64,000 bases of DNA, from NCBI GenBank assembly GCA_965237485.1, contig CBDEFQ010000009.1:1241778-1305777 (forward strand), in the 5' to 3' direction. Source of the DNA: Candidatus Poriferihabitaceae bacterium. GTDB taxonomy: Bacteria; Pseudomonadota; Gammaproteobacteria; Arenicellales; Poriferihabitantaceae. Below, one piece after another: positions 32,056 through 56,176 of this stretch. How positions within the stretch are numbered: the stretch's first letter is position 1; every line of letters starts with the position of its first letter. A model generated the notes under the pieces. It was given only the letters and a program-made list of their open reading frames with translations, did not search any database and was not told the origin of the DNA. Position numbers and translations under genes: made by a program.

Positions 32056-32384
32056 GTAACTTCTCAATAACCCGTGGCAAAGCTGGCGCGTTCCATAATG
32101 ATATCTGGCAGAGGATCAATATGTTGCTCACCGATACCAAGTCGATGGGTCAGGTAGTGCCAGAACGATATATCCAGTTTTCGGCAGGTCTTTTTCAAAC
32201 TGGCAAACGTGTCCCGACACTGCTGGCCAGCATCGCTGCGGGTGGAGCCACTCACTTTTCGTTTTTTCACGTAATCGCGAATGTCTGTTTCACTGCCATT
32301 GGTGTGTAACGGAATATCTGGTCGATCTAGCACCAACAGTAATTCTGCTTGATTCGCATGGATTCGTTTGAGCGTCTGATTTAA

Positions 32385-32547
32385 CCTAGATAAATCAGTT
32401 AAAACACGAAAGTCCATGCAAGCTCTTGATGCACCTAGCAAAATCAAAAAAAACCTTATCACCAATAAGGTAACCGCGACTTTTTTGATTTCACTATGCA
32501 CTTCAATTGCTTACATGTCTTTTCCGCGTTTAACTGATTTATCTAGG
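32385..32547 (-). mobile_element. 163-bp foldback MITE, subfamily 1
   Basis: It sits at the same site in the IS66-family transposase as the other three copies. Here its inner end directly abuts the 183-bp deletion. Confidence 0.88.
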
Positions 32548-33160
32548 ATTAAGCGCTCGGTGTGTATCCAACACAAGGCATGAGCCAAAATGTTAAATTG
32601 CCCTGCATCATCACTGACGACAGCGATGTCATCACACAGACCATGATGCAAAATACTACCAAGTAATGCCCCTTCGGTGGTGATACGTCGGTGACGTGCC
32701 TTAATGATCAACAGGCTATCGAGCATTTCAAGCCAGTCATCCTCGTTGGCAATACGGCGTTCCCGGTGCTCAGTTACAGCGGCTAAGGCTTGCTTTGGCA
32801 ATCCATGTTGTTGCCTATAATTCAACGCACTTTGACTCAAACGATAATCCGTATTGCCAGCCCTTAATAGCGGTAGGAAGTTAATTCGACTTTTTGATTG
32901 AGTACTTTTAAACCACGCAAACAAGTCATTACCAATGTGCGTTACATAGCCATTTTTGCCCTGATGGCGAGCACCACTATCGTCCACGGTCACGTAAGAC
33001 GATGCGCTCAGAGCAACGCCTCTTTCTCAGCATGAAAGGGCTCTTTAGTGCTGATCAGTATTGGGTTAATTTGTCCCGAAGAAATATCAATTCCCCACTC
33101 TCGCAACTGTTCCAACAAGAGTGGTTGCGTGGTTTGACAATGATGATATTGATAGAGAAT

Positions 33161-34336
33161 GGGCTCGTCGGTTAATACAATTTCAAACAGGGTTTTCGCC
33201 GAAGTCGCTTTTAGTTTGCTCAGCAACGCGTTTTTTGTGCAATAAACCGTCTATTAGCAGCCATTTTGCCACCAATAGACGGATCTATCCCTAGGCCGGC
33301 ACCAATTCAACTCGTTCAACTCCCAATGCCATTAATCGCTTAAGGTTAAAACATAAGCCCCTGATTCCAACTTGGAACTGGACTTTAGCCAACCCTTTAT
33401 AACGAACTCGCTTATTGCGATGAGCAAACACTCGCTCATATGGTGAACGAATTTTGCTAATCCAACGGTCTTTGTCTCTATTCTTGCCATGCATATTGTT
33501 CTTCTTGATTGTTGCATCATGGCAACCGTTGCGCCTGAGCGTGGTTTTGGCCGGGCTCACGCAATAACCCTTGTCCGCATAAACAGCGCCCGACTTAGGG
33601 CAAACATGCTTCAAGCCGCTTGCATCCGTTACCTCAGCCGAGGTGGCCGCTATTTTATTGATCAAGCCACTTTGCATATCCACTGATGCATGCTCTTTGT
33701 AACCATACCAATATTTGCTATTTCCCTTGCACCCAAACCGTGCTTGCTTGTCCGCCGCAACTTTATCAACTGTCTTATTGTTGAACTCCTCTAATCCCAT
33801 CTTTATCGCCTTATCTCTATCATCCCAAGTGGTTAGCTTACTGACCAACTGGCTGGCATCGACAAATGTGAATACTTCTCGTACTAAGCCCATTGAAACT
33901 AACCCGCTCCGAACACGGTCAAATAAATTCATCATACCCCTGGTTCCAATGCGTGAGCGAAAATCACCAAAGTAACTATGATCAGGAGTGCTCTGTTCCA
34001 GTCCTGAATCACAAAACCACTTAGCGGCCAGATTCTCTGATAAGTATCGCTCCATTTCTCTATCACTTAAATCTTCCATGAACTGAAGCACCAAGGCACG
34101 TAAGCCGAACTCAACACCTCGGCCTTTAGGGCCACGGGTGGCATATATTTTAGAGAAGGGTTTACTCAATGCACCAAAACATAATAGCTCATCGAGTTTA
34201 CGGTAGGGATGTTCAGAGCTAACCAGAGAATCTAAGGTTAGGAACAGTTGGCTTTGATGACGTTTGCTCAAAATTGCAGGCTGACTAGAATCAGCCCATA
34301 TTATCTCACGTATTCTATTAATTATCCGACAAGCCC
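33161..34336 (-). mobile_element. IS5-family insertion sequence nested in the IS66-family element
   Basis: 1176-bp element with IRs GGGCTCGTCGGTTAAT / ATTATCCGACAAGCCC. The host sequence duplicated is AGAAT on the + strand (ATTCT in the IS66 reading direction). The uninterrupted IS66 copy reads ..TTATATTCTCTATCAAT.. Confidence 0.85.
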
Positions 34337-34364
34337 AGAATATAACTGACCAGACGAGGCCCAT
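33291..34364 (-). CDS. IS5-family DDE transposase
   Basis: 357-aa ORF with an InsH-like N-terminal region (HPYRKLDELL..LRALVLQFMEDLSDREME) and DDE regions FVDASQL, VYADKGY and YERVFAHRNK. The ORF-track ATG lies 28 bp outside the IS end, so the native start is probably internal (TTG about 93 nt downstream). Confidence 0.75.
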   Translation of the reverse strand: MGLVWSVIFWACRIINRIREIIWADSSQPAILSKRHQSQLFLTLDSLVSSEHPYRKLDELLCFGALSKPFSKIYATRGPKGRGVEFGLRALVLQFMEDLSDREMERYLSENLAAKWFCDSGLEQSTPDHSYFGDFRSRIGTRGMMNLFDRVRSGLVSMGLVREVFTFVDASQLVSKLTTWDDRDKAIKMGLEEFNNKTVDKVAADKQARFGCKGNSKYWYGYKEHASVDMQSGLINKIAATSAEVTDASGLKHVCPKSGAVYADKGYCVSPAKTTLRRNGCHDATIKKNNMHGKNRDKDRWISKIRSPYERVFAHRNKRVRYKGLAKVQFQVGIRGLCFNLKRLMALGVERVELVPA

Positions 34365-35117
34365 AATGTCGCCCTGCCACGGATGTCGGTCACTGGCCTT
34401 TGAGCTTTTTATTGTCTGGCGTTACCCAATGCGCTAAACGATAGCGGGTGGTATGAACCTTGATAAGCAAATCTTGCACTACAAAATCCCGATAGCCTTT
34501 AAAGCGAGAACCTTCGGGCACGGACTTCGCTGGTTCAATAACCCGATTTAGGTCAATTGACAGCCTTGGTGTTTTCTTTGCCTTGTTCGACCCAGCTCGC
34601 TGCTTAGGTTTGTCGCTAGAAGATGAACGTTTTGGCTCTGTTTTCTTATCCATATTACCGCCCTTAACAGTAGGCCGCCTCTTCTGCCCCTTAAGGATAT
34701 TGATTTCATCTTTAAGCAATGCTATTTCTTCGTCCTGTTGTTGAACTCGCACCAACAGCTGCTCCACTAGCACCCGCAACATTTTTACTGCGGGGGTTTG
34801 TTCTTGTTCAGGAATGTCGGGAATAGAGGGTAGCTTACTCAAGGTCTTAAACGTCCGTTAACTGGATAGACCTTAGTGTACCATCGGTTTTGAAAGTCCA
34901 ATTTTGCCTTCTCAACTGCGCCACAACGAACGTTAAGAAGACACCCCTGAACGTCCTTAAGCGATCTTTGTTATTAGCGTAAAGGTGCCTACAACCACCC
35001 TGGAACTCAACCTAAATCGAGTCACTCGACCACGTTGAATTACCTTCCTTTTAGCGTAAAACCCTGTCAAGAAATATTTTGTTTTATTTTACCTGCCACG
35101 GGTTATTGAGAAGTTAC

Positions 35118-36024
35118 GTTTTAAGTCGAGGTAGTCTTTAACCGCATTGGCAACCGTAATCGCACTTTGCTTGCCCGTGCGATAGACCTCAATAATAATA
35201 GTCGGCTCGCCATTAAAATGGGTGTTGAGGGGGTCTTGAGCAAAGCCGTCCGTGACCGTGGCAATATCCTTGAGTTTTAAATCATTGCCTTGGGCATCGC
35301 TGCGTAAACTAAGATTGCCGAATGAATCGGCAGATTCTCTTAAGTTGCTAGTGCGCAATAAAATCTCGCCGCCACTTGCCTTTAATGGAACCTGCAGGAA
35401 AGTCGATTGAAGCCTGTTTAAGCGAGTTCACAATCTCGGCTAAACTTATCTTCGCTTGCTGTAATTTCTGCGGCTCAATCTCAATGCTAATCTCGTGGTC
35501 GCGAATGCCGTTTAACTCGGCATAACTAATTTGCGATAGGGCGGCAATTTCATCGCGGACTTGTTCGCTAATTTGGCGTAAGTCCAATTCTGGAAGATCG
35601 CCAGAAACAGCGACACTGATCACTTCGCGGCGAAAAACTGATACCGAATAGTTGGCTTTTTCGACCTCTGCGGGAAAAGTGGAAATACTGTCAATCCTGC
35701 TTTTTATGTCGTTCACTAATTCACGAGGCTTAAAGCCGTTATCTACTTCAATGGCTAAGCGGGCCGCACCCTCGTAAGCACTAGAAGAAATCTTTTTAAC
35801 GCCATCGAGGTCAGCGATGGCTTCTTCGGCGCGTACAACAACTGCTTGTTCAACTTCGGTAGGACTGGTGCCTTGATAAATAATGGCGACGTTGATGATG
35901 TCGTGTTCAAAGCTGGGAATACTTCAAGGGGGATACGTTCCTTAAGCGACCACCCACCAATGGCAAGAATAACCAGCAATAACAAGTTAGCAGCAACGCC
36001 GTTACGGGCAAACCACGCTATCAT
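35118..36024 (-). pseudogene. RND efflux permease (AcrB-like), N-terminal ~300 codons only, frameshifted and truncated by IS
   Basis: Three ORF fragments (35755-36024, 35348-35716, 35089-35358) read MIAWFARNGVAANLLLLVILAIGG.. then the periplasmic porter subdomain. The last fragment runs into the IS terminal repeat (tail NFSITRGR). Confidence 0.8.
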
Positions 36025-36059
36025 CTTAGATTCTGTGGCTGATTTGACATTAGCAAGGT

Positions 36060-37400
36060 TTAAAGTGTTTCAAAGAACGCACGTTGTTTGTCGGCAGGCA
36101 AATTCAAAACTTCCATTTTCTTATGTTCTGGTAAAGCCTTAAAAGCTTGGCACTTTTCTAATGCTAGTTCTTTAGTCAGAGCTTTAAACTTCTGGCTTAG
36201 ATTATTTCCAGATTCGTTAGCTTCGCCTTTTGGTGATTCTCCTGCTATTGATACGTTTATTCCTTCTGCGGCTAAAGCAATTGGAGTTTTAATTAGCCGC
36301 TGACCAACTTCAATTCCATCTCGGATAACAACATTCTCCGCATCGGCCCATAGCAGGGTAATTTGTTTATGAATTAGTTTGTTGTCCTTTGAAACAAGTT
36401 GAATGTGAGTATTATTTTTAGTGGAGTTGCGCGGGATGACCCAAACATCATTTAACACGGTAGCATCAATTTGAGCACTTACAAATTGACCCAATGTGAG
36501 CGCTTGCCCACCATCAGCGCTTTTTACAAAGGGCTGTGCCACTTCAGCCACCACATACTGCTGTAAGCTTTGTGCATTTACTATGCCTTCGCTACGCACT
36601 AATGTCCCTCTGCGTACAGAAGTTGGTTTTTTTTCACTACCCTCAATGGCGACATTCGGCCCCGCTTCATTAGATAGTGCCTCAAGATTGAGGAAGGACA
36701 GCTGCTTAGCAGTAAGGGGTAGGCGCACCTCAATCTTATCCGTTGCGACTAATTCTAAAAGCGTTGTTCCGGCATTTACAAACTGATTTATACTTACCTG
36801 CTTGGTGATAATGCGACTGTCAAATGGGGCATTTATTTTAGTTCGTGTCAGTTGGGTTCTCGCTTGAGCAACGCGCGCTTTCGCCGCAGCCAAGGCGGCT
36901 TCATTGCTTTTTCGTTGCGGTTCCCGTAATGCCAGTTTGCTGGGTTCTCCACTTAATCCTAACAGTGCGCGGTCACGTAACACCTGGTCGCGCTCAGCAT
37001 CACCTTGTTCTAATGTCAGTTGGGCTTGGGCTTGGGCTAGCTCAGCTTTAACAATAATCAATTTTTGCTGAAGATCGGAATCGTCAATTTCAACTAACAC
37101 TTCATCCTTTTTGAATAGCCCGCCAACGTGAAGCTTGGGTGATAATTTGATGACGCGCCCCTTAACTTCGGCAGAAATCGTGCTTTGTTTGGTCGCTTGT
37201 ACTAGCCCATGGCTTTTTAATCGAACTTGATAGCTTTGCGGCGCTAAGTTCAGAACCTCTACCATGGGTGGATTGGCAGTTTTGGGGCGCCGCTGTTGAT
37301 CTGGTGCCGTATCCAGAAGTTGCTTACCAGCAAATAAGAATAGGCCAAGCACTAAGATGGGAAGACCAAATCTTAGTACGGAACGGATTAGGGCTAACAT
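36060..37400 (-). CDS. RND efflux periplasmic adaptor (membrane fusion protein)
   Basis: 446-aa ORF with an N-terminal TM anchor, a coiled-coil hairpin (AELAQAQAQLTLEQGDAERD..AAKARVAQARTQL), and barrel-sandwich and beta-barrel regions. Confidence 0.8.
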   Translation of the reverse strand: MLALIRSVLRFGLPILVLGLFLFAGKQLLDTAPDQQRRPKTANPPMVEVLNLAPQSYQVRLKSHGLVQATKQSTISAEVKGRVIKLSPKLHVGGLFKKDEVLVEIDDSDLQQKLIIVKAELAQAQAQLTLEQGDAERDQVLRDRALLGLSGEPSKLALREPQRKSNEAALAAAKARVAQARTQLTRTKINAPFDSRIITKQVSINQFVNAGTTLLELVATDKIEVRLPLTAKQLSFLNLEALSNEAGPNVAIEGSEKKPTSVRRGTLVRSEGIVNAQSLQQYVVAEVAQPFVKSADGGQALTLGQFVSAQIDATVLNDVWVIPRNSTKNNTHIQLVSKDNKLIHKQITLLWADAENVVIRDGIEVGQRLIKTPIALAAEGINVSIAGESPKGEANESGNNLSQKFKALTKELALEKCQAFKALPEHKKMEVLNLPADKQRAFFETL

Positions 37401-37535
37401 GGTTTTTAGGGTAGGTGCGTCTAAGGCCTTTAGTAGAGTGGGCTAAATTGTAACAAGAAATCACAACTCATCTATTACTTTGGCGAGGCCGAAGAAGCGG
37501 GGTACACAAGGGCTAGCCGTTTGCTAACCAACAAA

Positions 37536-37889
37536 TCAGTCAGTAGATGATTTCGGTTTTTCGTAGAAAATATAACTGGTTGAGTAGTCAGAGAACTCAA
37601 AATACACTTTTTGCTCATTTGCATCTTGTTTGGAGTTCAAGTTTTCGTCGAGTACCCCATAACCGAAGCGATAAGGCCGTGGCTGATTGCCGTTGGTGCT
37701 TACTGCGGTAGAAAGTTTATCAACACCCATAAACCGTTTGACCAGCTTGTCACCGGCGTAGACCTCAAGTACTCCATCGGTGCCCGTCCAGTTTTGAACA
37801 GCACGACCGAACTTGTTTTGGGTTTCTTGGGTACAAGCACTTAACAGCAAGCTAGCGAGCGCCACTAATAGGATAGGTTTTAATTGCAT
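37536..37889 (-). CDS. small lipoprotein, unknown function
   Basis: The start is set at MQLKPILLVALASLLLSAC (lipobox LLSAC). It is identical to its mirror copy at 50094-50447. Confidence 0.6.
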   Translation of the reverse strand: MQLKPILLVALASLLLSACTQETQNKFGRAVQNWTGTDGVLEVYAGDKLVKRFMGVDKLSTAVSTNGNQPRPYRFGYGVLDENLNSKQDANEQKVYFEFSDYSTSYIFYEKPKSSTD

Positions 37890-38408
37890 GGTTTTGATGT
37901 GCCTTCTCGGGCTTTGCAAGCAGCGGATATTATAGCGGGAATGACCAGCAATAAGAAATCATCCTTCGCGGGATCCGCATCGGGATTGGGGGTCTTACAC
38001 AGCTCCTCATATTCGATAAGGCTAGCGAACGCGGCACCACTGTCCAGCTACACTTTAGTATGAATTTGCTCGTCCGCTCGTAACTTCTCAATAACCCGTG
38101 GCAAAGCTGGCGCGTTCCATAATGATATCTGGCAGAGGATCAATATGTTGCTCACCGATACCAAGTCGATGGGTCAGGTAGTGCCAGAACGATATATCCA
38201 GTTTTCGGCAGGTCTTTTTCAAACTGGCAAACGTGTCCCGACACTGCTGGCCAGCATCGCTGCGGGTGGAGCCACTCACTTTTCGTTTTTTCACGTAATC
38301 GCGAATGTCTGTTTCACTGCCATTGGTGTGTAACGGAATATCTGGTCGATCTAGCACCAACAGTAATTCTGCTTGATTCGCATGGATTCGTTTGAGCGTC
38401 TGATTTAA

Positions 38409-38571
38409 CCTAGATAAATCAGTTAAAACACGAAAGTCCATGCAAGCTCTTGATGCACCTAGCAAAATCAAAAAAAACCTTATCACCAATAAGGTGACCG
38501 CGACTTTTTTGATTTCACTATGCACTTCAATTGCTTACATGTCTTTTCCGCGTTTAACTGATTTATCTAGG
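38409..38571 (-). mobile_element. 163-bp foldback MITE, subfamily 1
   Basis: Mirror of 49412-49574. Confidence 0.88.
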
Positions 38572-39539
38572 TTTAATGTTTGGTAGCATGTCTGTTGAGT
38601 GAAGATTTCATCGAAACGCTGCTCAAGTATTTTACGTTGGTTCTCGCAAGGCTGGGTTTTATACTCTTTTAACGCCCGATAAAAGCACCAGACTTGGTCG
38701 CGTATTTTAGCCATGCCCTGCCGGTGTCCCTCGTTCAGCGGTATCAACTTATGGATTAAGCGCTCGGTGTGTATCCAGCACAAGGCATGAGCCAAAATGT
38801 TAAATTGCCCTGCATCATCACTGACGACAACGATGTCATCACACAGACCATGATGCAAAATACTACCAAGTAATGCCCCTTCGGTGGTGATACGTCGGTG
38901 ACGTGCCTTAATGATCAACAGGCTATCGAGCATTTCAAGCCAGTCATCCTCGTTGGCAATACGGCGTTCCCGGTGCTCAGTTACAGCGGCTAAGGCTTGC
39001 TTTGGCAATCCATGTTGTTGCCTATAATTCAACGCACTTTGACTCAAACGATAATCCGTATTGCCAGCCCTTAATAGCGGTAGGAAGTTAATTCGACTTT
39101 TTGATTGAGTACTTTTAAACCACGCAAACAAGTCATTACCAATGTGCGTTACATAGCCATTTTTGCCCTGATGGCGAGCACCACTATCGTCCACGGTCAC
39201 GTAAGACGATGCGCTCAGAGCAACGCTTAGTAACGCCTCTTTCTCAGCATGAAAGGGCTCTTTAGCACTGATCAGTATTGGGTTAATTTGTCCCGAAGAA
39301 ATATCAATTCCCCACTCTCGCAACTGTTCCAACAAGAGTGGTTGCGTGGTTTGACAATGATGATATTGATAGAGAATATAACTGACCAGACGAGGCCCAT
39401 AATGTCGCCCTGCCACGGATGTCGGTAACTGGCCTTTGAGCTTTTTATTGTCTGGCGTTACCCAATGCGCTAAACGATAGCGGGTGGTATGAACCTTGAT
39501 AAGCAAATCTTGCACTACAAAATCCCGATAGCCTTTAAA

Positions 39540-39702
39540 CCTAGAAAACTCAGTTGAAACACAAATGTCTGCACAACTCTTTAATATGCCTAAGAAACCC
39601 AGAAAAGCACTCATCACCAATAAGGTGACCTCGTATTTTCTGACTTCCTTATTCATATCAATTAGTTACACATCTTTTTTGCGTTCAACTGGGTTTTCTA
39701 GG
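39540..39702 (-). mobile_element. 163-bp foldback MITE, subfamily 2
   Basis: Mirror of 48281-48443. Confidence 0.88.
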
Positions 39703-40292
39703 TTAAAGCGAGAACCTTCGGGCACGGACTTCGCTGGTTCAATAACCCGATTTAGGTCAATTGACAGCCTTGGTGTTTTCTTTGCCTTGTTCGACCCAGC
39801 TCGCTGCTTAGGTTTGTCGCTAGAAGATGAACGTTTTGGCTCTGTTTTCTTATCCATATTACCGCCCTTAACAGTAGGCCGCCTCTTCTGCCCCTTAAGG
39901 ATATTGATTTCATCTTTAAGCAATGCTATTTCTTCGTCCTGTTGTTGAACTCGCACCAACAGCTGCTCCACTAGCACCCGCAACATTTTTACTGCGGGGG
40001 TTTGTTCTTGTTCAGGAATGTCGGGAATAGAGGGTAGCTTACTCAAGGTCTTAAACGTCCGTTAACTGGATAGACCTTAGTGTACCATCGGTTTTGAAAG
40101 TCCAATTTTGCCTTCTCAACTGCGCCACAACGAACGTTAAGAAGACACCCCTGAACGTCCTTAAGCGATCTTTGTTATTAGCGTAAAGGGGCCTACAACC
40201 ACCCTGGAACTCAACCTAAATCGAGTCACTCGACCACGTTGAATTACCTTCCTTTTAGCGTAAAACCCGGTCAAGAAATATTTTGTTTTATT

Positions 40293-41201
40293 TTACCTGC
40301 CACGGGTTATTGAGAAGTTACATTTTATTTCCCTCATTACTTCGCTTTCTTCGTCTGAAGCCGGAGTATTCAATACCTTAAATTCATCCAATGCAGACAG
40401 CGCCATTTTGGGATGGCCGCAGTGTAAATAAATACCCTGCTTATATATTGCAAGCTGCGCGTTACGCGGCGCTCGATTCACTAAGGTTTCTGCAAGCCCT
40501 GCGTATTCACATAACTCTGGCACACGCCAATTACTTTCTTGAATCAATGCTCGCGCGGCTTCTGCGCCAAACGCTATAGATCGCTCAATCGACTGCTTGA
40601 TCCGAGTTAGCCCTGAATCTTTGTCACCTTTAATTTTAAAAAGCTTGCCTAGCCACTTAAACTCATCTGGAACATTTCCACTGTGATATTCGTATAAGCC
40701 TAATACCAGCATTAAATCTGGCTGATTGGGGTAGACCTCTAGTAAGGCAGCTGCTTGAGCTTTTGCTGATCTAGCCATTCTAAGCACCGAGATAGGCTGG
40801 TTTTGTGCAAACTTAATTCTCGCCGCGTGCGCCTGTGCTAGCACGTAGGCTAATTTGATCTCGTAGTTTGACTGATTACCCGCACGTTTCTTTAGCGCGG
40901 CAACACTCTCAAGCACCTTTTTAAGCCCTGCTCTTCGTCTTTCATTTTTATCTTCGAAATAAGCTTCAACCCAAGCATTTAAAGCCAGATAAAAATCGGC
41001 CAGATAAAACGCTGCATCCCGCCCTTTAAGATTTTCGATTAAGTCCTTCGCCGCGCTGCGCTCTCGGTTCAACATCAGCATATAGGCTTGTTGCATCTGT
41101 GCCTGAATACAGATTTGCGGCTCATCTTGATCTGCAAAACTGATATTTGCTGTGATCATGCTTAACGCTAATAGGGCAGATCGAAACATTGCGTCAGACA
41201 A
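40293..41201 (-). CDS. secreted helical-repeat (TPR-like) hypothetical protein, 3' end fused to or truncated by the IS terminus
   Basis: 302-aa ORF with a signal peptide (ALLALSMITANISFA). The last 8 codons (NFSITRGR) are encoded by the IS66-family terminal repeat, so the native C-terminus is lost or replaced. Confidence 0.5.
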   Translation of the reverse strand: MSDAMFRSALLALSMITANISFADQDEPQICIQAQMQQAYMLMLNRERSAAKDLIENLKGRDAAFYLADFYLALNAWVEAYFEDKNERRRAGLKKVLESVAALKKRAGNQSNYEIKLAYVLAQAHAARIKFAQNQPISVLRMARSAKAQAAALLEVYPNQPDLMLVLGLYEYHSGNVPDEFKWLGKLFKIKGDKDSGLTRIKQSIERSIAFGAEAARALIQESNWRVPELCEYAGLAETLVNRAPRNAQLAIYKQGIYLHCGHPKMALSALDEFKVLNTPASDEESEVMREIKCNFSITRGR

Positions 41202-41208
41202 ACAGCTT

Positions 41209-46911: not shown

Positions 46912-47010
46912 TAGTAACTTTAGTTTCCCAATAAATCAGTAATTTAGGCATAATGCAGATACTGTAACTTCAGGTATGGACTTTTATATTAGATAGAGCA
47001 GTATGGCCTT

Positions 47011-47032: not shown

Positions 47033-47132
47033 CGAATTTTTGATTTATTCAAATTTTCTATCTTGGTGTCTTGTAAGTTGAGCCATTGGTGCGTTCCCTG
47101 TTTTAAGCAATTAACATACTGGAGACACCCAA

Positions 47133-47661
47133 ATGACCCAATCAAACAATAACGTATTTGACGTAGTAGTGGAACACACATCTCAGAAGGCCCCGATGCC
47201 ATGCGCCCCGTGCTCACCGCACTGCTCAATGAGGCGATGAAGATTGAAAGAGAGCCGTTTCCAGGCGCATCACACTATGAGCATAGTCAAGACCGGCCAG
47301 GGTTTGCCCATGGCTACCAGGATAAGCGTATCGATACACAAGCCGGTACGCTCAATCTGCGTATCCCAAAGACCGCTCAACACGTTGATGAACCTTTTTA
47401 CCCTCAATCGCTAGAACGCGGCTTACGCAGCCAACGTGCGATGCTGCTGACCGTTGCTGAAATGTACGTGACGGGCGTTAGCACGCGCCGAGTCGAAAAA
47501 GTCATGCAGAGCATGGGTATTGAAAGCATCTCCTCTACACCGGTCTCACGGGCTAACCAGAGCATGGATGAGGCGTTAAAAGTCTGGCGTGATCGTCCGT
47601 TGGGTAAAGTCTCTTACCTAATCCTTGATGCGCGTTATGAAAAGGTGCGTGAGGGCCACCA
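47133..47661 (+). pseudogene. IS256-family (mutator-type) transposase remnant, frameshifted and truncated by IS66-family insertion
   Basis: The ORF 47201-47665 reads ..AEMYVTGVSTRRVEKVMQSMG..SYLILDARYEKVREG, and stops just after the first catalytic Asp region where the IS66-family IR begins (47662). The upstream ATG at 47133 is in another frame. Confidence 0.7.
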
Positions 47662-47936
47662 GTAACTTCTCAATAACCCGTGGCAGGTAAAATAAAACAA
47701 AATATTTCTTGACCGGGTTTTACGCTAAAAGGAAGGTAATTCAACGTGGTCGAGTGACTCGATTTAGGTTGAGTTCCAGGGTGGTTGTAGGCCCCTTTAC
47801 GCTAATAACAAAGATCGCTTAAGGACGTTCAGGGGTGTCTTCTTAACGTTCGTTGTGGCGCAGTTGAGAAGGCAAAATTGGACTTTCAAAACCGATGGTA
47901 CACTAAGGTCTATCCAGTTAACGGACGTTTAAGACC

Positions 47937-49895
47937 TTGAGTAAGCTACCCTCTATTCCCGACATTCCTGAACAAGAACAAACCCCCGCAGTAAAAATGT
48001 TGCGGGTGCTAGTGGAGCAGCTGTTGGTGCGAGTTCAACAACAGGACGAAGAAATAGCATTGCTTAAAGATGAAATCAATATCCTTAAGGGGCAGAAGAG
48101 GCGGCCTACTGTTAAGGGCGGTAATATGGATAAGAAAACAGAGCCAAAACGTTCATCTTCTAGCGACAAACCTAAGCAGCGAGCTGGGTCGAACAAGGCA
48201 AAGAAAACACCAAGGCTGTCAATTGACCTAAATCGGGTTATTGAACCAGCGAAGTCCGTGCCCGAAGGTTCTCGCTTTAACCTAGAAAACCCAGTTGAAC
48301 GCAAAAAAGATGTGTAACTAATTGATATGAATAAGGAAGTCAGAAAATACGAGGTCACCTTATTGGTGATGAGTGCTTTTCTGGGTTTCTTAGGCATATT
48401 AAAGAGTTGTGCAGACATTTGTGTTTCAACTGAGTTTTCTAGGTTTAAAGGCTATCGGGATTTTGTAGTGCAAGATTTGCTTATCAAGGTTCATACCACC
48501 CGCTATCGTTTAGCGCATTGGGTAACGCCAGACAATAAAAAGCTCAAAGGCCAGTTACCGACATCCGTGGCAGGGCGACATTATGGGCCTCGTCTGGTCA
48601 GTTATATTCTCTATCAATATCATCATTGTCAAACCACGCAACCACTCTTGTTGGAACAGTTGCGAGAGTGGGGAATTGATATTTCTTCGGGACAAATTAA
48701 CCCAATACTGATCAGTGCTAAAGAGCCCTTTCATGCTGAGAAAGAGGCGTTACTAAGCGTTGCTCTGAGCGCATCGTCTTACGTGACCGTGGACGATAGT
48801 GGTGCTCGCCATCAGGGCAAAAATGGCTATGTAACGCACATTGGTAATGACTTGTTTGCGTGGTTTAAAAGTACTCAATCAAAAAGTCGAATTAACTTCC
48901 TACCGCTATTAAGGGCTGGCAATACGGATTATCGTTTGAGTCAAAGTGCGTTGAATTATAGGCAACAACATGGATTGCCAAAGCAAGCCTTAGCCGCTGT
49001 AACTGAGCACCGGGAACGCCGTATTGCCAACGAGGATGACTGGCTTGAAATGCTCGATAGCCTGTTGATCATTAAGGCACGTCACCGACGTATCACCACC
49101 GAAGGGGCATTACTTGGTAGTATTTTGCATCATGGTCTGTGTGATGACATCGTTGTCGTCAGTGATGATGCAGGGCAATTTAACATTTTGGCTCATGCCT
49201 TGTGCTGGATACACACCGAGCGCTTAATCCATAAGTTGATACCGCTGAACGAGGGACACCGGCAGGGCATGGCTAAAATACGCGACCAAGTCTGGTGCTT
49301 TTATCGGGCGTTAAAAGAGTATAAAACCCAGCCTTGCGAGAACCAACGTAAAATACTTGAGCAGCGTTTCGATGAAATCTTCACTCAACAGACATGCTAC
49401 CAAACATTAAACCTAGATAAATCAGTTAAACGCGGAAAAGACATGTAAGCAATTGAAGTGCATAGTGAAATCAAAAAAGTCGCGGTCACCTTATTGGTGA
49501 TAAGGTTTTTTTTGATTTTGCTAGGTGCATCAAGAGCTTGCATGGACTTTCGTGTTTTAACTGATTTATCTAGGTTAAATCAGACGCTCAAACGAATCCA
49601 TGCGAATCAAGCAGAATTACTGTTGGTGCTAGATCGACCAGATATTCCGTTACACACCAATGGCAGTGAAACAGACATTCGCGATTACGTGAAAAAACGA
49701 AAAGTGAGTGGCTCCACCCGCAGCGATGCTGGCCAGCAGTGTCGGGACACGTTTGCCAGTTTGAAAAAGACCTGCCGAAAACTGGATATATCGTTCTGGC
49801 ACTACCTGACCCATCGACTTGGTATCGGTGAGCAACATATTGATCCTCTGCCAGATATCATTATGGAACGCGCCAGCTTTGCCACGGGTTATTGA
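47937..49895 (+). CDS. IS66-family transposase reading frame, split into three same-phase segments (126 + 373 + 145 codons) by two MITEs
   Basis: Joined without the MITEs, it is a 541-codon frame. It has an N-terminal coiled coil, DDE-type regions VDDSGARH and VSDDAGQF, the IS66-typical CWIHTERL motif and TNGSETDIR. Confidence 0.75.
48281..48443 (+). mobile_element. 163-bp foldback MITE, subfamily 2
   Basis: The element runs CCTAGAAAACCCAGTTGAACGC...GTTTCAACTGAGTTTTCTAGG with TSD TTTAA (48276-48280 / 48444-48448). The empty site is visible in copy R2 (..CTCGCTTTAAAGGCTAT.., 53474-53490). Confidence 0.9.
49412..49574 (+). mobile_element. 163-bp foldback MITE, subfamily 1
   Basis: TSD TTAAA (49407-49411 / 49575-49579). 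It is present at the identical site in all four IS66-family copies. Confidence 0.9.
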
Positions 49896-50093
49896 GAAGT
49901 TACGAGCGGACGAGCAAATTCATACTAAAGTGTAGCTGGACAGTGGTGCCGCGTTCGCTAGCCTTATCGAATATGAGGAGCTGTGTAAGACCCCCAATCC
50001 CGATGCGGATCCCGCGAAGGATGATTTCTTATTGCTGGTCATTCCCGCTATAATATCCGCTGCTTGCAAAGCCCGAGAAGGCACATCAAAACC

Positions 50094-50447
50094 ATGCAAT
50101 TAAAACCTATCCTATTAGTGGCGCTCGCTAGCTTGCTGTTAAGTGCTTGTACCCAAGAAACCCAAAACAAGTTCGGTCGTGCTGTTCAAAACTGGACGGG
50201 CACCGATGGAGTACTTGAGGTCTACGCCGGTGACAAGCTGGTCAAACGGTTTATGGGTGTTGATAAACTTTCTACCGCAGTAAGCACCAACGGCAATCAG
50301 CCACGGCCTTATCGCTTCGGTTATGGGGTACTCGACGAAAACTTGAACTCCAAACAAGATGCAAATGAGCAAAAAGTGTATTTTGAGTTCTCTGACTACT
50401 CAACCAGTTATATTTTCTACGAAAAACCGAAATCATCTACTGACTGA
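50094..50447 (+). CDS. small lipoprotein, unknown function
   Basis: Lipobox LLSAC. Duplicate of 37536-37889. Confidence 0.6.
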   Translation: MQLKPILLVALASLLLSACTQETQNKFGRAVQNWTGTDGVLEVYAGDKLVKRFMGVDKLSTAVSTNGNQPRPYRFGYGVLDENLNSKQDANEQKVYFEFSDYSTSYIFYEKPKSSTD

Positions 50448-50582
50448 TTTGTTGGTTAGCAAACGGCTAGCCCTTGTGTACCCCGCTTCTTCGGCCTCGC
50501 CAAAGTAATAGATGAGTTGTGATTTCTTGTTACAATTTAGCCCACTCTACTAAAGGCCTTAGACGCACCTACCCTAAAAACC

Positions 50583-51923
50583 ATGTTAGCCCTAATCCGT
50601 TCCGTACTAAGATTTGGTCTTCCCATCTTAGTGCTTGGCCTATTCTTATTTGCTGGTAAGCAACTTCTGGATACGGCACCAGATCAACAGCGGCGCCCCA
50701 AAACTGCCAATCCACCCATGGTAGAGGTTCTGAACTTAGCGCCGCAAAGCTATCAAGTTCGATTAAAAAGCCATGGGCTAGTACAAGCGACCAAACAAAG
50801 CACGATTTCTGCCGAAGTTAAGGGGCGCGTCATCAAATTATCACCCAAGCTTCACGTTGGCGGGCTATTCAAAAAGGATGAAGTGTTAGTTGAAATTGAC
50901 GATTCCGATCTTCAGCAAAAATTGATTATTGTTAAAGCTGAGCTAGCCCAAGCCCAAGCCCAACTGACATTAGAACAAGGTGATGCTGAGCGCGACCAGG
51001 TGTTACGTGACCGCGCACTGTTAGGATTAAGTGGAGAACCCAGCAAACTGGCATTACGGGAACCGCAACGAAAAAGCAATGAAGCCGCCTTGGCTGCGGC
51101 GAAAGCGCGCGTTGCTCAAGCGAGAACCCAACTGACACGAACTAAAATAAATGCCCCATTTGACAGTCGCATTATCACCAAGCAGGTAAGTATAAATCAG
51201 TTTGTAAATGCCGGAACAACGCTTTTAGAATTAGTCGCAACGGATAAGATTGAGGTGCGCCTACCCCTTACTGCTAAGCAGCTGTCCTTCCTCAATCTTG
51301 AGGCACTATCTAATGAAGCGGGGCCGAATGTCGCCATTGAGGGTAGTGAAAAAAAACCAACTTCTGTACGCAGAGGGACATTAGTGCGTAGCGAAGGCAT
51401 AGTAAATGCACAAAGCTTACAGCAGTATGTGGTGGCTGAAGTGGCACAGCCCTTTGTAAAAAGCGCTGATGGTGGGCAAGCGCTCACATTGGGTCAATTT
51501 GTAAGTGCTCAAATTGATGCTACCGTGTTAAATGATGTTTGGGTCATCCCGCGCAACTCCACTAAAAATAATACTCACATTCAACTTGTTTCAAAGGACA
51601 ACAAACTAATTCATAAACAAATTACCCTGCTATGGGCCGATGCGGAGAATGTTGTTATCCGAGATGGAATTGAAGTTGGTCAGCGGCTAATTAAAACTCC
51701 AATTGCTTTAGCCGCAGAAGGAATAAACGTATCAATAGCAGGAGAATCACCAAAAGGCGAAGCTAACGAATCTGGAAATAATCTAAGCCAGAAGTTTAAA
51801 GCTCTGACTAAAGAACTAGCATTAGAAAAGTGCCAAGCTTTTAAGGCTTTACCAGAACATAAGAAAATGGAAGTTTTGAATTTGCCTGCCGACAAACAAC
51901 GTGCGTTCTTTGAAACACTTTAA
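50583..51923 (+). CDS. RND efflux periplasmic adaptor (membrane fusion protein)
   Basis: Identical 446-aa duplicate of 36060-37400. Confidence 0.8.
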   Translation: MLALIRSVLRFGLPILVLGLFLFAGKQLLDTAPDQQRRPKTANPPMVEVLNLAPQSYQVRLKSHGLVQATKQSTISAEVKGRVIKLSPKLHVGGLFKKDEVLVEIDDSDLQQKLIIVKAELAQAQAQLTLEQGDAERDQVLRDRALLGLSGEPSKLALREPQRKSNEAALAAAKARVAQARTQLTRTKINAPFDSRIITKQVSINQFVNAGTTLLELVATDKIEVRLPLTAKQLSFLNLEALSNEAGPNVAIEGSEKKPTSVRRGTLVRSEGIVNAQSLQQYVVAEVAQPFVKSADGGQALTLGQFVSAQIDATVLNDVWVIPRNSTKNNTHIQLVSKDNKLIHKQITLLWADAENVVIRDGIEVGQRLIKTPIALAAEGINVSIAGESPKGEANESGNNLSQKFKALTKELALEKCQAFKALPEHKKMEVLNLPADKQRAFFETL

Positions 51924-51958
51924 ACCTTGCTAATGTCAAATCAGCCACAGAATCTAAG

Positions 51959-52865
51959 ATGATAGCGTGGTTTGCCCGTAACGGCGTTGCTGCTAACTTG
52001 TTATTGCTGGTTATTCTTGCCATTGGTGGGTGGTCGCTTAAGGAACGTATCCCCCTTGAAGTATTCCCAGCTTTGAACACGACATCATCAACGTCGCCAT
52101 TATTTATCAAGGCACCAGTCCTACCGAAGTTGAACAAGCAGTTGTTGTACGCGCCGAAGAAGCCATCGCTGACCTCGATGGCGTTAAAAAGATTTCTTCT
52201 AGTGCTTACGAGGGTGCGGCCCGCTTAGCCATTGAAGTAGATAACGGCTTTAAGCCTCGTGAATTAGTGAACGACATAAAAAGCAGGATTGACAGTATTT
52301 CCACTTTTCCCGCAGAGGTCGAAAAAGCCAACTATTCGGTATCAGTTTTTCGCCGCGAAGTGATCAGTGTCGCTGTTTCTGGCGATCTTCCAGAATTGGA
52401 CTTACGCCAAATTAGCGAACAAGTCCGCGATGAAATTGCCGCCCTATCGCAAATTAGTTATGCCGAGTTAAACGGCATTCGCGACCACGAGATTAGCATT
52501 GAGATTGAGCCGCAGAAATTACAGCAAGCGAAGATAAGTTTAGCCGAGATTGTGAACTCGCTTAAACAGGCTTCAATCGACTTTCCTGCAGGTTCCATTA
52601 AAGGCAAGTGGCGGCGAGATTTTATTGCGCACTAGCAACTTAAGAGAATCTGCCGATTCATTCGGCAATCTTAGTTTACGCAGCGATGCCCAAGGCAATG
52701 ATTTAAAACTCAAGGATATTGCCACGGTCACGGACGGCTTTGCTCAAGACCCCCTCAACACCCATTTTAATGGCGAGCCGACTATTATTATTGAGGTCTA
52801 TCGCACGGGCAAGCAAAGTGCGATTACGGTTGCCAATGCGGTTAAAGACTACCTCGACTTAAAAC
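51959..52865 (+). pseudogene. RND efflux permease remnant (frameshifted, truncated by IS)
   Basis: Mirror of 35118-36024. The IS66-family IR starts at 52866. Confidence 0.8.
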
Positions 52866-53618
52866 GTAACTTCTCAATAACCCGTGGCAGGTAAAATAAA
52901 ACAAAATATTTCTTGACAGGGTTTTACGCTAAAAGGAAGGTAATTCAACGTGGTCGAGTGACTCGATTTAGGTTGAGTTCCAGGGTGGTTGTAGGCACCT
53001 TTACGCTAATAACAAAGATCGCTTAAGGACGTTCAGGGGTGTCTTCTTAACGTTCGTTGTGGCGCAGTTGAGAAGGCAAAATTGGACTTTCAAAACCGAT
53101 GGTACACTAAGGTCTATCCAGTTAACGGACGTTTAAGACCTTGAGTAAGCTACCCTCTATTCCCGACATTCCTGAACAAGAACAAACCCCCGCAGTAAAA
53201 ATGTTGCGGGTGCTAGTGGAGCAGCTGTTGGTGCGAGTTCAACAACAGGACGAAGAAATAGCATTGCTTAAAGATGAAATCAATATCCTTAAGGGGCAGA
53301 AGAGGCGGCCTACTGTTAAGGGCGGTAATATGGATAAGAAAACAGAGCCAAAACGTTCATCTTCTAGCGACAAACCTAAGCAGCGAGCTGGGTCGAACAA
53401 GGCAAAGAAAACACCAAGGCTGTCAATTGACCTAAATCGGGTTATTGAACCAGCGAAGTCCGTGCCCGAAGGTTCTCGCTTTAAAGGCTATCGGGATTTT
53501 GTAGTGCAAGATTTGCTTATCAAGGTTCATACCACCCGCTATCGTTTAGCGCATTGGGTAACGCCAGACAATAAAAAGCTCAAAGGCCAGTGACCGACAT
53601 CCGTGGCAGGGCGACATT

Positions 53619-54692
53619 ATGGGCCTCGTCTGGTCAGTTATATTCTGGGCTTGTCGGATAATTAATAGAATACGTGAGATAATATGGGCTGATTCTAGTC
53701 AGCCTGCAATTTTGAGCAAACGTCATCAAAGCCAACTGTTCCTAACCTTAGATTCTCTGGTTAGCTCTGAACATCCCTACCGTAAACTCGATGAGCTATT
53801 ATGTTTTGGTGCATTGAGTAAACCCTTCTCTAAAATATATGCCACCCGTGGCCCTAAAGGCCGAGGTGTTGAGTTCGGCTTACGTGCCTTGGTGCTTCAG
53901 TTCATGGAAGATTTAAGTGATAGAGAAATGGAGCGATACTTATCAGAGAATCTGGCCGCTAAGTGGTTTTGTGATTCAGGACTGGAACAGAGCACTCCTG
54001 ATCATAGTTACTTTGGTGATTTTCGCTCACGCATTGGAACCAGGGGTATGATGAATTTATTTGACCGTGTTCGGAGCGGGTTAGTTTCAATGGGCTTAGT
54101 ACGAGAAGTATTCACATTTGTCGATGCCAGCCAGTTGGTCAGTAAGCTAACCACTTGGGATGATAGAGATAAGGCGATAAAGATGGGATTAGAGGAGTTC
54201 AACAATAAGACAGTTGATAAAGTTGCGGCGGACAAGCAAGCACGGTTTGGGTGCAAGGGAAATAGCAAATATTGGTATGGTTACAAAGAGCATGCATCAG
54301 TGGATATGCAAAGTGGCTTGATCAATAAAATAGCGGCCACCTCGGCTGAGGTAACGGATGCAAGCGGCTTGAAGCATGTTTGCCCTAAGTCGGGCGCTGT
54401 TTATGCGGACAAGGGTTATTGCGTGAGCCCGGCCAAAACCACGCTCAGGCGCAACGGTTGCCATGATGCAACAATCAAGAAGAACAATATGCATGGCAAG
54501 AATAGAGACAAAGACCGTTGGATTAGCAAAATTCGTTCACCATATGAGCGAGTGTTTGCTCATCGCAATAAGCGAGTTCGTTATAAAGGGTTGGCTAAAG
54601 TCCAGTTCCAAGTTGGAATCAGGGGCTTATGTTTTAACCTTAAGCGATTAATGGCATTGGGAGTTGAACGAGTTGAATTGGTGCCGGCCTAG
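53619..54692 (+). CDS. IS5-family DDE transposase
   Basis: Identical to 33291-34364. The ORF-track ATG is outside the IS boundary, and a likely internal TTG start lies at 53712. Confidence 0.75.
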   Translation: MGLVWSVIFWACRIINRIREIIWADSSQPAILSKRHQSQLFLTLDSLVSSEHPYRKLDELLCFGALSKPFSKIYATRGPKGRGVEFGLRALVLQFMEDLSDREMERYLSENLAAKWFCDSGLEQSTPDHSYFGDFRSRIGTRGMMNLFDRVRSGLVSMGLVREVFTFVDASQLVSKLTTWDDRDKAIKMGLEEFNNKTVDKVAADKQARFGCKGNSKYWYGYKEHASVDMQSGLINKIAATSAEVTDASGLKHVCPKSGAVYADKGYCVSPAKTTLRRNGCHDATIKKNNMHGKNRDKDRWISKIRSPYERVFAHRNKRVRYKGLAKVQFQVGIRGLCFNLKRLMALGVERVELVPA

Positions 54693-54822
54693 GGATAGAT
54701 CCGTCTATTGGTGGCAAAATGGCTGCTAATAGACGGTTTATTGCACAAAAAACGCGTTGCTGAGCAAACTAAAAGCGACTTCGGCGAAAACCCTGTTTGA
54801 AATTGTATTAACCGACGAGCCC
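53647..54822 (+). mobile_element. IS5-family insertion sequence nested in the IS66-family element
   Basis: IRs GGGCTTGTCGGATAATTAAT / ..ATTAACCGACGAGCCC, flanked by duplicated ATTCT. Confidence 0.85.
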
Positions 54823-55618
54823 ATTCTCTATCAATATCATCATTGTCAAACCACGCAACCACTCTTGTTGGAACAGTTGCGAGAGTGGGGAATTGATATT
54901 TCTTCGGGACAAATTAACCCAATACTGATCAGCACTAAAGAGCCCTTTCATGCTGAGAAAGAGGCGTTGCTCTGAGCGCATCGTCTTACGTGACCGTGGA
55001 CGATAGTGGTGCTCGCCATCAGGGCAAAAATGGCTATGTAACGCACATTGGTAATGACTTGTTTGCGTGGTTTAAAAGTACTCAATCAAAAAGTCGAATT
55101 AACTTCCTACCGCTATTAAGGGCTGGCAATACGGATTATCGTTTGAGTCAAAGTGCGTTGAATTATAGGCAACAACATGGATTGCCAAAGCAAGCCTTAG
55201 CCGCTGTAACTGAGCACCGGGAACGCCGTATTGCTAACGAGGATGACTGGCTTGAAATGCTCGATAGCCTGTTGATCATTAAGGCACGTCACCGACGTAT
55301 CACCACCGAAGGGGCATTACTTGGTAGTATTTTGCATCATGGTCTGTGTGATGACATCGTTGTCGTCAGTGATGATGCAGGGCAATTTAACATTTTGGCT
55401 CATGCCTTGTGTTGGATACACACCGAGCGCTTAATCCATAAGTTGATACCGCTGAACGAGGGACACCGGCAGGGCATGGCTAAAATACGCGACCAAGTCT
55501 GGTGCTTTTATCGGGCGTTAAAAGAGTATAAAACCCAGCCTTGCGAGAACCAACGTAAAATACTTGAGCAGCGTTTCGATGAAATCTTCACTCAACAGAC
55601 ATGCTACCAAACATTAAA

Positions 55619-55781
55619 CCTAGATAAATCAGTTAAACGCGGAAAAGACATGTAAGCAATTGAAGTGCATAGTGAAATCAAAAAAGTCGCGGTCACCTTA
55701 TTGGTGATAAGGTTTTTTTTGATTTTGCTAGGTGCATCAAGAGCTTGCATGGACTTTCGTGTTTTAACTGATTTATCTAGG
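55619..55781 (+). mobile_element. 163-bp foldback MITE, subfamily 1
   Basis: Same insertion site as 49412-49574, with intact flanks here, unlike the mirror copy at 32385-32547. Confidence 0.88.
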
Positions 55782-56176
55782 TTAAATCAGACGCTCAAAC
55801 GAATCCATGCGAATCAAGCAGAATGACTGTTGGTGCTAGATCGACCAGATATTCCGTTACACACCAATGGCAGTGAAACAGACATTCGCGATTACGTGAA
55901 AAAACGAAAAGTGAGTGGCTCCACCCGCAGCGATGCTGGCCAGCAGTGTCGGGACACGTTTGCCAGTTTGAAAAAGACCTGCCGAAAACTGGATATATCG
56001 TTCTGGCACTACCTGACCCATCGACTTGGTATCGGTGAGCAACATATTGATCCTCTGCCAGATATCATTATGGAACGCGCCAGCTTTGCCACGGGTTATT
56101 GAGAAGTTACCCTATTGATTGCTATCTATTTGATAAGATTGATGTCTCTACTATTAAAGCCCTGTCGCTGCGAATA

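What the first reader, a model, noticed from the sequence alone, without database searches (positions are those of the whole stretch)
32056..56110. 8.3/8.45-kb near-identical inverted duplication bracketing the miaA-mutL-amiB-tsaE-queG core
Region 32056-40321 is the reverse complement of 47662-56110. The 7340-bp segment between them (40322-47661) is unique. It holds a hypothetical gene, miaA, mutL, amiB, tsaE, queG and an IS256 remnant.

The arms are not perfectly identical. I found three differences:
- a 183-bp deletion in the left arm
- a private substitution at 32623 (left arm)
- a private substitution at 55235 (right arm)

These differences argue for a real duplication of some age rather than an assembly copy-paste.

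Recombination between the arms would flip the central housekeeping block. None of the four IS66-family termini at the arm ends has a matching 8-bp target duplication, which is consistent with IS-mediated homologous rearrangements having shaped the locus.
Basis: seen in the sequence. Interest (0 to 1): 0.62.

Follow-up and report, generated by a model that had tools for sequence, protein, structure and literature searches.

The report
IS66-bounded inverted duplication around mutL block
Two mirror-image 8-kb copies of a dead efflux-pump fragment, each bounded by copies of one insertion sequence, flank a housekeeping gene block; this is an ordinary by-product of recombination between insertion sequences in a repeat-laden genome related to sponge-associated MAGs.

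Summary
The inverted duplication is real in the sequence. 32056-40321 (8,266 bp) is the reverse complement of 47662-56110 (8,449 bp), around a 7,340-bp centre.

Each arm has three parts:
- a decayed IS66-family copy (A);
- a 2,962-bp fragment of a chromosomal RND efflux operon (R);
- a second IS66-family copy (B).

The arms differ by a 183-bp indel and four substitutions, not two. All of these lie in the outermost 693 bp, inside IS copy A. There the two arms are no more alike than any two IS66 paralogs in the genome. The other 7,573 bp are 100% identical. The differences therefore do not date the duplication.

Pairing target-site duplications across the genome, and joining flanks in silico, shows two things. 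R was cut out of its native carA-dapB-RND locus. The hypothetical gene next to miaA was split by simple IS66 insertions, and later IS-IS homologous recombination moved the halves apart.

The best explanation is recent homology-driven copying of A-R-B into another, inverted IS66 copy. Neither composite transposition nor duplicative inversion leaves its expected signature.

About 33% of this 4.17-Mb genome is repeats, and other IS-bounded duplications exist. Flipping of the centre is plausible but would not change the local sequence context.

Interest is low.

The parts
32056..40321 (.). Left arm (8,266 bp): IS66 copy A + RND fragment R + IS66 copy B
47662..56110 (.). Right arm (8,449 bp), the reverse complement of the left arm: B' 47662-49903, R' 49904-52865, A' 52866-56110
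32749..40321 (.). Core of the left arm, 100% identical over 7,573 bp to the reverse complement of 47662-55234
32056..32748 (.). Outermost 693 bp of the left arm (E1-proximal part of IS66 copy A). It holds all four substitutions and the 183-bp deletion junction (7-bp overlap at 32546-32552). Divergence from the right arm is at paralog level.
55438..55620 (.). 183 bp of IS66 sequence present only in the right arm. It adjoins the end of the 172-bp MITE.
32056..35117 (-). IS66-family copy A, decayed. It carries a 172-bp MITE (about 32385-32547), the 183-bp deletion and an IS5-family insertion. 24-bp terminal inverted repeats are intact at both ends.
33161..34336 (-). IS5/IS1182-type element (1,176 bp including a roughly 5-bp duplication) inserted into IS66 copy A. 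It has about 56 copies genome-wide.
35118..38079 (-). R: a 2,962-bp fragment of a chromosomal RND efflux operon. It holds a permease N-terminal stub (35348-35716), a periplasmic adaptor (36060-37400) and a 127-aa ORF (37536-37919). There are exactly two copies in the genome, both in this window.
38080..40321 (-). IS66-family copy B (2,242 bp). Its transposase frame is broken by two 160-170-bp MITE insertions. 24-bp terminal inverted repeats are intact.
40322..47661 (.). Central 7,340-bp segment H. Its gene order is conserved in relatives.
40293..41201 (-). Hypothetical gene truncated by the IS66 end at 40321 (TSD ATTTTATT). Its 3' part lies at C9:272723, 1.01 Mb away, next to another IS66 end with the same 8-mer.
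41209..42171 (-). miaA
   Evidence: TIGR00174, 298 bits
42150..44060 (-). mutL
   Evidence: NF000949, 809 bits
44057..45277 (-). N-acetylmuramoyl-L-alanine amidase in the amiB position. All AmiA/B/C models score below their cut-offs.
45328..45774 (-). tsaE
45835..46911 (+). queG
46958..47661 (+). IS256-family element (first 704 bp) cut off by the IS66 end of the right arm

Best explanation
This is a real, very recent (or continuously homogenised) inverted segmental duplication. It was made by homologous recombination between copies of one IS66-family insertion sequence, in a genome that is about one third repeats.

Shown steps:
1. Two IS66 copies inserted into an ordinary chromosomal locus (carA-dapB-...-small ORF-RND adaptor-RND permease), with TSDs GTCCGCTC and GTTTTAAG. 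A third inserted into the hypothetical gene downstream of miaA, with TSD ATTTTATT.
2. Recombination between IS66 copies then separated the halves of these sites. The operon fragment R ended up between two IS66 copies next to the miaA-mutL block. Its former neighbours now sit on other contigs or 1 Mb away.

Inferred step:
3. The unit A-R-B was copied into another IS66 copy (Z) lying in inverted orientation on the other side of the block. Z's two parts paired with A and with B. This could be a double crossover with the sister chromosome or repair of a break in Z. It copies R, ends exactly at the IS termini, makes no TSD, and leaves the outermost part of one arm derived from Z.

Consequences:
- R is a dead pump fragment because its permease is broken, so no function is proposed for the duplication.
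- The arms can recombine to flip the centre. Both isomers would have identical local junctions.
For: - Identity: 7,573 bp are 100% identical. All four substitutions and the indel fall in the outer 693 bp. If differences were spread uniformly, the chance of all four substitutions falling there is about (693/8266)^4 = 5e-5.
- Paralog-level divergence: in that outer part, A versus A' differ by 2/490 and 2/327, equal to the median between any two MITE-bearing IS66 paralogs.
- Arm ends: the arms end exactly at the 24-bp IS terminal repeats. No flank pair matches.
- TSD pairing: ATTTTATT at 40321 pairs with the E1 end at C9:272724. GTTTTAAG pairs with C4:730785. GTCCGCTC pairs with C3:41121. Only 10 of 37 IS66 copies keep their own 8-bp TSD, and at least 10 TSD pairs are split between distant loci. 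About 0.02 chance matches are expected.
- Empty-site joins: one restores a 405-aa ORF colinear with the relatives' protein. Another restores colinearity with congener G003's carA-dapB-ORF-adaptor-permease locus.
- Relatives: queG-tsaE-amidase-mutL-miaA-hypothetical gene is followed by genes that in this genome lie at C9:272-260 kb.
- Copy number: R has exactly two copies. X, Y and H are single-copy, and there are no alternative haplotig junctions.
- Genome context: 33% of the genome is repeat-covered. Other duplications of more than 10 kb are also IS-bounded.
- Precedent: repeat-flanked segments duplicated in inverted orientation into a third homologous repeat in E. coli O157:H7 (PMC8743559).
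Against: - No reads could be examined. Copy number and the linkage of each arm to its flanks rest on the assembly alone.
- The proposed recipient copy Z is inferred, not observed. Its two flanks (TGGTGGCC / TCAATAGG, or CTCTGTTG / ATTTTATT) do not share a TSD either, so Z itself must already have been a recombinant.
- Z must have carried the same MITE at the same position as copy A. Only 9 of the 34 IS66 copies aligned do (including A, A', B and B').
- B and B' are identical right up to the inner end, so no Z-derived tract is visible on that side.
- An older duplication kept uniform by gene conversion gives the same pattern.
Confidence: 0.7

Rival explanations
1. An older IS-mediated inverted duplication whose arms are kept identical by intrachromosomal gene conversion (concerted evolution). 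Differences survive only near the outer edge, beyond or close to the 183-bp heterology.
For: The pattern is an identical interior with a divergent edge. Two of the four differing sites are polymorphic among IS66 paralogs, which fits conversion patches from other copies. Inverted repeats 7 kb apart are good conversion substrates (established knowledge).
Against: Neither arm has a private insertion, even though about 100 MITE copies, about 60 IS256 copies and about 56 IS5-like copies are present in this genome. Two of the substitutions (32623 and 32748) lie inside the 183-bp heterology, not outside it. This rival differs from the best explanation only in timing.
Confidence: 0.15
2. A-R-B moved as a composite transposon, mobilised in trans by an intact IS66-family transposase. 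A new copy inserted in inverted orientation, and later IS-IS recombination erased the target duplication.
For: Both arms end exactly at intact 24-bp terminal repeats. An apparently intact 520-aa transposase exists at C5:42996-44901, and MITE- or IS5-bearing 3.25-kb IS66 derivatives with clean 8-bp TSDs show that broken copies can be mobilised in trans.
Against: Neither arm has a direct TSD, and there is no inverted TSD of the duplicative-inversion type. The flanks of neither arm form a contiguous target. The left inner flank's true partner is at C9:272724, and the right flanks are an IS256 stub and the gbdR-like gene's upstream region. A transposed copy should be uniformly identical, yet the outer 693 bp are at paralog-level divergence. 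R is absent from its native locus, so its presence here already required homologous recombination.
Confidence: 0.07
3. Assembly artefact. Either a chimeric path joins two co-existing strain arrangements in which a single A-R-B unit abuts opposite ends of the central block, or a repeat graph was mis-resolved.
For: The closest named relatives are metagenome-assembled genomes. The assembly over-runs a small circular contig (C11), so it has not been finished by hand. The arm interior is 100% identical and longer than many reads. No reads could be checked.
Against: The arms differ by a 183-bp indel and four substitutions, and each has unique flanks. The structure lies in the interior of a 1.44-Mb contig. 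No leftover contigs carry alternative junctions, and X, Y and H are single-copy. Estimated contamination is 0.26%. An inversion polymorphism alone cannot create the Y-A'-R' linkage.
Confidence: 0.07

Closest known systems
Repeat-mediated inverted segmental duplications in bacterial chromosomes, e.g. the 220-kb and 140-kb inverted duplications of E. coli O157:H7 (PMC8743559)
   Same: A segment flanked by two copies of a repeated mobile element is duplicated and sits in inverted orientation within or next to a third homologous repeat. No transposition signature is left. One E. coli case even has an IS66 boundary.
   Different: This one is much smaller (8.3 kb versus 140-220 kb). The passenger is a dead operon fragment. 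The two copies lie only 7.3 kb apart and bracket a housekeeping block. Its occurrence was not observed directly, only inferred from one assembly.
IS-IS homologous recombination leaving IS copies without TSDs (E. coli LTEE and mutation-accumulation analyses: PMC11708052, PMC5009759)
   Same: IS copies lack their own TSD because flanks were exchanged by recombination. Matching half-sites can be found elsewhere in the genome (abstract).
   Different: The scale differs. At least 10 split TSD pairs exist for one IS family, in a genome that is 33% repeats.
Composite (compound) transposons such as Tn5, Tn10 and Tn9
   Same: The anatomy of each arm matches: two copies of one IS with intact terminal repeats enclosing passenger DNA.
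   Different: No TSD surrounds either unit. The flanks are explained by recombination. The passenger is a broken gene fragment. The two ISs are direct repeats that are both disrupted.
IS66 family, single-ORF subgroup (ISBst12-like; subgroup name from my own knowledge of ISfinder)
   Same: It has a DDE_Tnp_IS66 domain (PF03050, 50 bits), 24-bp terminal repeats beginning GTAA, and an 8-bp TSD.
   Different: It has no tnpA or tnpB genes. The NCBIfam IS66 model scores far below its cut-off (55 versus 180 bits), so it is a distant member.

Membership tests
IS66 family insertion sequence (the element at the arm ends) | Transposase with a DDE_Tnp_IS66 domain | tested here: met
   PF03050 scores 50.3 bits against a cut-off of 23.1 on the intact 520-aa ORF of the C5 copy. 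NCBIfam NF033517 reaches only 51-55 bits against a cut-off of 180 on the fragments.
IS66 family insertion sequence (the element at the arm ends) | Terminal inverted repeats starting GTAA, and an 8-bp target duplication | tested here: met
   The perfect 24-bp repeat is GTAACTTCTCAATAACCCGTGGCA. Ten copies are flanked by identical 8-mers.
IS66 family insertion sequence (the element at the arm ends) | Canonical three-gene tnpA-tnpB-tnpC organisation | tested here: not met
   The clean element is 1,906 bp with one long ORF. This fits only the single-ORF subgroup of the family.
Composite transposon that moved as a unit | Two IS copies with usable outer ends enclosing passenger DNA | tested here: met
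Composite transposon that moved as a unit | Direct 8-bp target duplication flanking the whole unit in a contiguous target | tested here: not met
   Left arm flanks are CTCTGTTG / ATTTTATT. Right arm flanks are TCAATAGG / TGGTGGCC. The flanks are not contiguous in relatives.
Duplicative inversion by intramolecular replicative transposition | The inner flank of one copy is the reverse complement of the outer flank of the other copy (inverted TSD) | tested here: not met
   In element orientation, ATTTTATT does not match TCAATAGG, and CTCTGTTG does not match TGGTGGCC.
IS-homology-mediated segmental duplication (non-allelic homologous recombination) | Duplication boundaries lie within a dispersed repeat, there is no TSD, and half-sites are found elsewhere | tested here: met
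IS-homology-mediated segmental duplication (non-allelic homologous recombination) | A crossover tract: the edge of the arm derives from a different repeat copy | tested here: inconclusive
   The outer 693 bp are at paralog-level divergence. Gene conversion after the event would look the same.
Programmed invertible segment (phase-variation switch) | A dedicated site-specific recombinase, short inverted repeats, and a promoter or gene whose context changes on inversion | tested here: not met
   No recombinase was found among the ORFs scanned between 29.5 and 60 kb. The arms are 8 kb of IS plus junk, and both inner junctions are identical IS ends, so the context would not change.
Programmed invertible segment (phase-variation switch) | Both orientations present in the population | not testable with these tools

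The most novel reading that the evidence does not exclude
The IS66-family element may copy 'IS + adjacent DNA' units next to another copy of itself by a transposase-driven, homology-targeted reaction that makes no TSD, analogous to IS26 translocatable units. That would explain the exact IS-end boundaries and the missing TSDs of this and other IS-bounded duplications in the genome. Alternatively, the two arms may sustain a standing inversion polymorphism of the mutL-miaA block in the symbiont population.
Probability: 0.05. Interest if true: 0.5.

Novelty: new member of a known kind. Interest (0 to 1): 0.17.

Why it matters
- **As an example.** It is a clean, well-resolved case of how an IS expansion reshapes a genome related to sponge-associated MAGs. 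One ancestral operon is cut into three pieces, and one piece is carried off and duplicated around essential housekeeping genes.
- **As a method.** Genome-wide TSD pairing reconstructs this history and could be applied to the whole genome.
- **For annotation.** The duplicated RND adaptor genes should be treated as remnants of a broken operon, not as an amplified efflux system. The locus should also be flagged as recombination-prone.
- **Overall.** It does not reveal a new mechanism or function.

Tried and rejected
- **Reads.** There was therefore no test of depth, spanning reads or orientation.
- **Close strains.** A metagenome scan with the RND adaptor found nothing. The genome-contig scan found only relatives at 76-81% MutL identity. 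No near-identical strain was available for comparison.
- **Extra shared flanks.** The repeat tool suggested an extra 11 bp and 6 bp shared beyond the IS ends. These proved to be loose ungapped extension, not real shared sequence.
- **Composite transposition.** Rejected on TSD and flank evidence.
- **Duplicative inversion.** Rejected on TSD evidence.
- **Link to origin or terminus.** GC skew is scrambled along the whole 1.44-Mb contig, with nothing special at the window.
- **Copy B as the complete IS66.** I first assumed that most copies were deletion derivatives of B. The reverse is true. The clean element is 1,906 bp, and B carries two MITE insertions.
- **Selection for dosage.** Unlikely, because the permease of the duplicated operon is broken and its remainder lies on another contig.


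Full report
**Observation**

Self-comparison of the window and a global alignment of the two arms confirm the repeat. 32056-40321 (8,266 bp) is the reverse complement of 47662-56110 (8,449 bp), with 7,340 bp between them. The arms differ by one 183-bp indel, present only at 55438-55620 and bounded by a 7-bp overlap at 32546-32552. They also differ by four substitutions (32341/55825, 32472/55694, 32623/55360, 32748/55235).

All differences lie within the outermost 693 bp of the arm. From 32749 to 40321 the arms are 100% identical over 7,573 bp. If four substitutions fell at random along 8,266 bp, the chance that all lie in the first 693 bp is about 5e-5.

**Anatomy**

Each arm has three parts.

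- Copy A of an IS66-family element occupies 32056-35117. It carries a 172-bp MITE, an IS5/IS1182-type insertion (33161-34336) and, in the left arm only, the 183-bp deletion that starts at the MITE end.
- R occupies 35118-38079. It is 2,962 bp of non-IS DNA with an RND permease N-terminal stub, an RND periplasmic adaptor (446 aa) and a 127-aa ORF.
- Copy B of the same IS occupies 38080-40321. Its transposase frame is interrupted by two MITE insertions.

The clean form of this IS is 1,906 bp. It has one ORF of about 520 aa (PF03050, 50 bits), perfect 24-bp terminal repeats (GTAACTTCTCAATAACCCGTGGCA) and 8-bp target duplications. A copy with an open frame sits at C5:42996-44901.

The centre holds a truncated hypothetical gene, miaA, mutL, an amidase, tsaE, queG and the first 704 bp of an IS256-family element cut by the IS66 end.

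**Genome context**

The window is C9:1241778-1305777 of a 4.17-Mb, 11-contig assembly. The closest named relatives are a Candidatus Poriferihabitaceae MAG and an unclassified gammaproteobacterial MAG, at 76-81% MutL identity. The only paper in the library that uses that family name is a sponge genome and metagenome report. Congeners are 2.0-3.5 Mb.

About 33% of the genome is covered by repeats:
- 37 pairs of IS66 ends
- about 60 IS256 copies
- about 56 IS5-like copies
- about 49 copies of a 1.3-kb IS
- about 100 copies of the 172-bp MITE

GC skew is scrambled along the contig. Other duplications of more than 10 kb exist and also begin and end in high-copy IS elements.

**History read from target-site duplications**

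I extracted the 8-bp flank of every IS66 end in the genome. Only 10 of 37 elements keep their own duplication. At least 10 further matching pairs are split between distant loci, where about 0.02 matches are expected by chance. Three of these pairs involve the arms.

- ATTTTATT at the left inner junction (40321) pairs with an IS66 end at C9:272724. Joining the two flanks in silico restores a 405-aa ORF colinear with the relatives' 389-399-aa protein. In the relatives this gene is followed by genes that here lie at C9:272-260 kb.
- GTTTTAAG (R, permease side) pairs with C4:730785.
- GTCCGCTC (R, other side) pairs with C3:41121.

Joining the C4 flank, R and the C3 flank gives a locus colinear with congener G003: carB-carA-dapB-...-small ORF-adaptor-permease-856-aa gene. 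R is therefore an ordinary chromosomal piece. It was cut out of its native operon by two IS66 insertions and carried away by IS-IS recombination. It no longer exists at its native site, and it occurs exactly twice, both times in this window.

The three remaining outer and inner flanks (CTCTGTTG, TCAATAGG, TGGTGGCC) have no partner.

**Mechanism of the duplication**

Composite transposition predicts a direct 8-bp repeat around one unit. Duplicative inversion predicts an inverted 8-bp repeat between the inner end of one unit and the outer end of the other. Neither is present. Neither arm's flanks form a contiguous target in relatives.

A transposed copy should also be uniformly identical. Instead, in the outer roughly 1 kb, A and A' differ by 2/490 and 2/327. 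That equals the median between any two MITE-bearing IS66 paralogs. Two of the four variable sites are polymorphic among paralogs.

The most economical reading is that A-R-B was copied into a third IS66 copy lying in inverted orientation. That copy's two parts paired with A and with B, either as a double crossover with the sister chromosome or as repair of a break. This gives boundaries at the IS termini, no new duplication, and an outer tract still derived from the recipient copy.

The same kind of event has been documented in E. coli O157:H7: a repeat-flanked segment duplicated in inverted orientation into a third homologous repeat, in one case with an IS66 boundary (PMC8743559). TSD-less IS copies produced by IS-IS recombination are documented in PMC11708052.

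An older duplication homogenised by gene conversion cannot be separated from a very recent one with these data.

**Function**

None is proposed. The permease of the duplicated operon is broken and its remainder lies on another contig, so the duplicated adaptor genes are remnants.

Recombination between the arms would flip the miaA-mutL block. Because both inner junctions are identical IS ends, flipping changes nothing locally except orientation relative to replication.

**Artefact risk**

Against an artefact:
- the 183-bp indel and four substitutions between the arms
- unique flanks on each side
- an interior position in a 1.44-Mb contig
- no leftover alternative junctions
- 0.26% estimated contamination

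An inversion polymorphism alone cannot create the Y-A'-R' linkage. A chimeric path between two co-existing strain arrangements remains possible, at about 7%.

**Verdict**

This is an ordinary, if neatly reconstructable, IS-mediated inverted segmental duplication.

Noticed in passing
window 38405-38576 and 39547-39702 (also 32385-32547, 19836-20008); genome-wide: A roughly 172-bp foldback MITE has about 100 copies in the genome. It sits twice inside IS66 copy B and once in copy A. Nine of the 34 IS66 copies aligned carry it at the same position, and some of these have clean 8-bp TSDs, so MITE-bearing copies went on transposing.
   Followed up: partly
window 32546-32552 / 55438-55620: The 183-bp deletion private to the left arm starts at the end of the MITE, which suggests a MITE-end-associated adjacent deletion.
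   Followed up: partly
G000 contig C11 (38,501 bp): The first 12,743 bp and the last 12,743 bp are 100% identical. C11 is therefore a 25,758-bp circular replicon (plasmid or phage) assembled past its own start.
   Followed up: no
G000 C5:42996-44901: This is a clean 1,906-bp copy of the IS66-family element with an uninterrupted transposase frame of about 520 aa and TSD TCTTTTCC. It is a likely source of transposase in trans.
   Followed up: partly
IS66 copies at C6:225619-228874, C6:310735-313989, C10:365240-368520 and window 33161-34336: The 1.18-kb IS5-like element has inserted into IS66 copies at several different positions. This suggests a preference for, or tolerance of, landing in other mobile elements.
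   Followed up: no
G000 C6:567825-574499: This is a 6.7-kb tandem array with a period of about 348 bp (93-96% identity between units). It is probably a large repeat protein.
   Followed up: no
G000 C1:956-12310 vs C6:637694-648982; C6:839199-854641 vs C10:498335-513778 vs C4:515596-527464: These are further 11-15-kb duplications at 99.7-99.9% identity. Their boundaries lie in IS elements with 60-90 copies, and one runs to a contig end.
   Followed up: partly
window 30278-31602, 60111-61432 and 20005-21278: Three direct copies of a 1.3-kb IS (weak rve integrase hit, about 49 copies genome-wide). Two of them bracket the whole arm-centre-arm structure together with its short unique flanks.
   Followed up: no
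window 56099-57142: The right arm's outer IS66 end sits directly at the 5' end of a GbdR-like AraC-family regulator (87% identical to congener G003's copy, which is 180 kb from mutL there). The insertion may have removed its promoter.
   Followed up: partly
joined native locus vs L009 5612-8287: Congener G003 has an 891-aa ORF between dapB and the RND operon. Here only its last 42 codons or so remain, at the edge of R, so a deletion accompanied the IS66 insertion or recombination.
   Followed up: no
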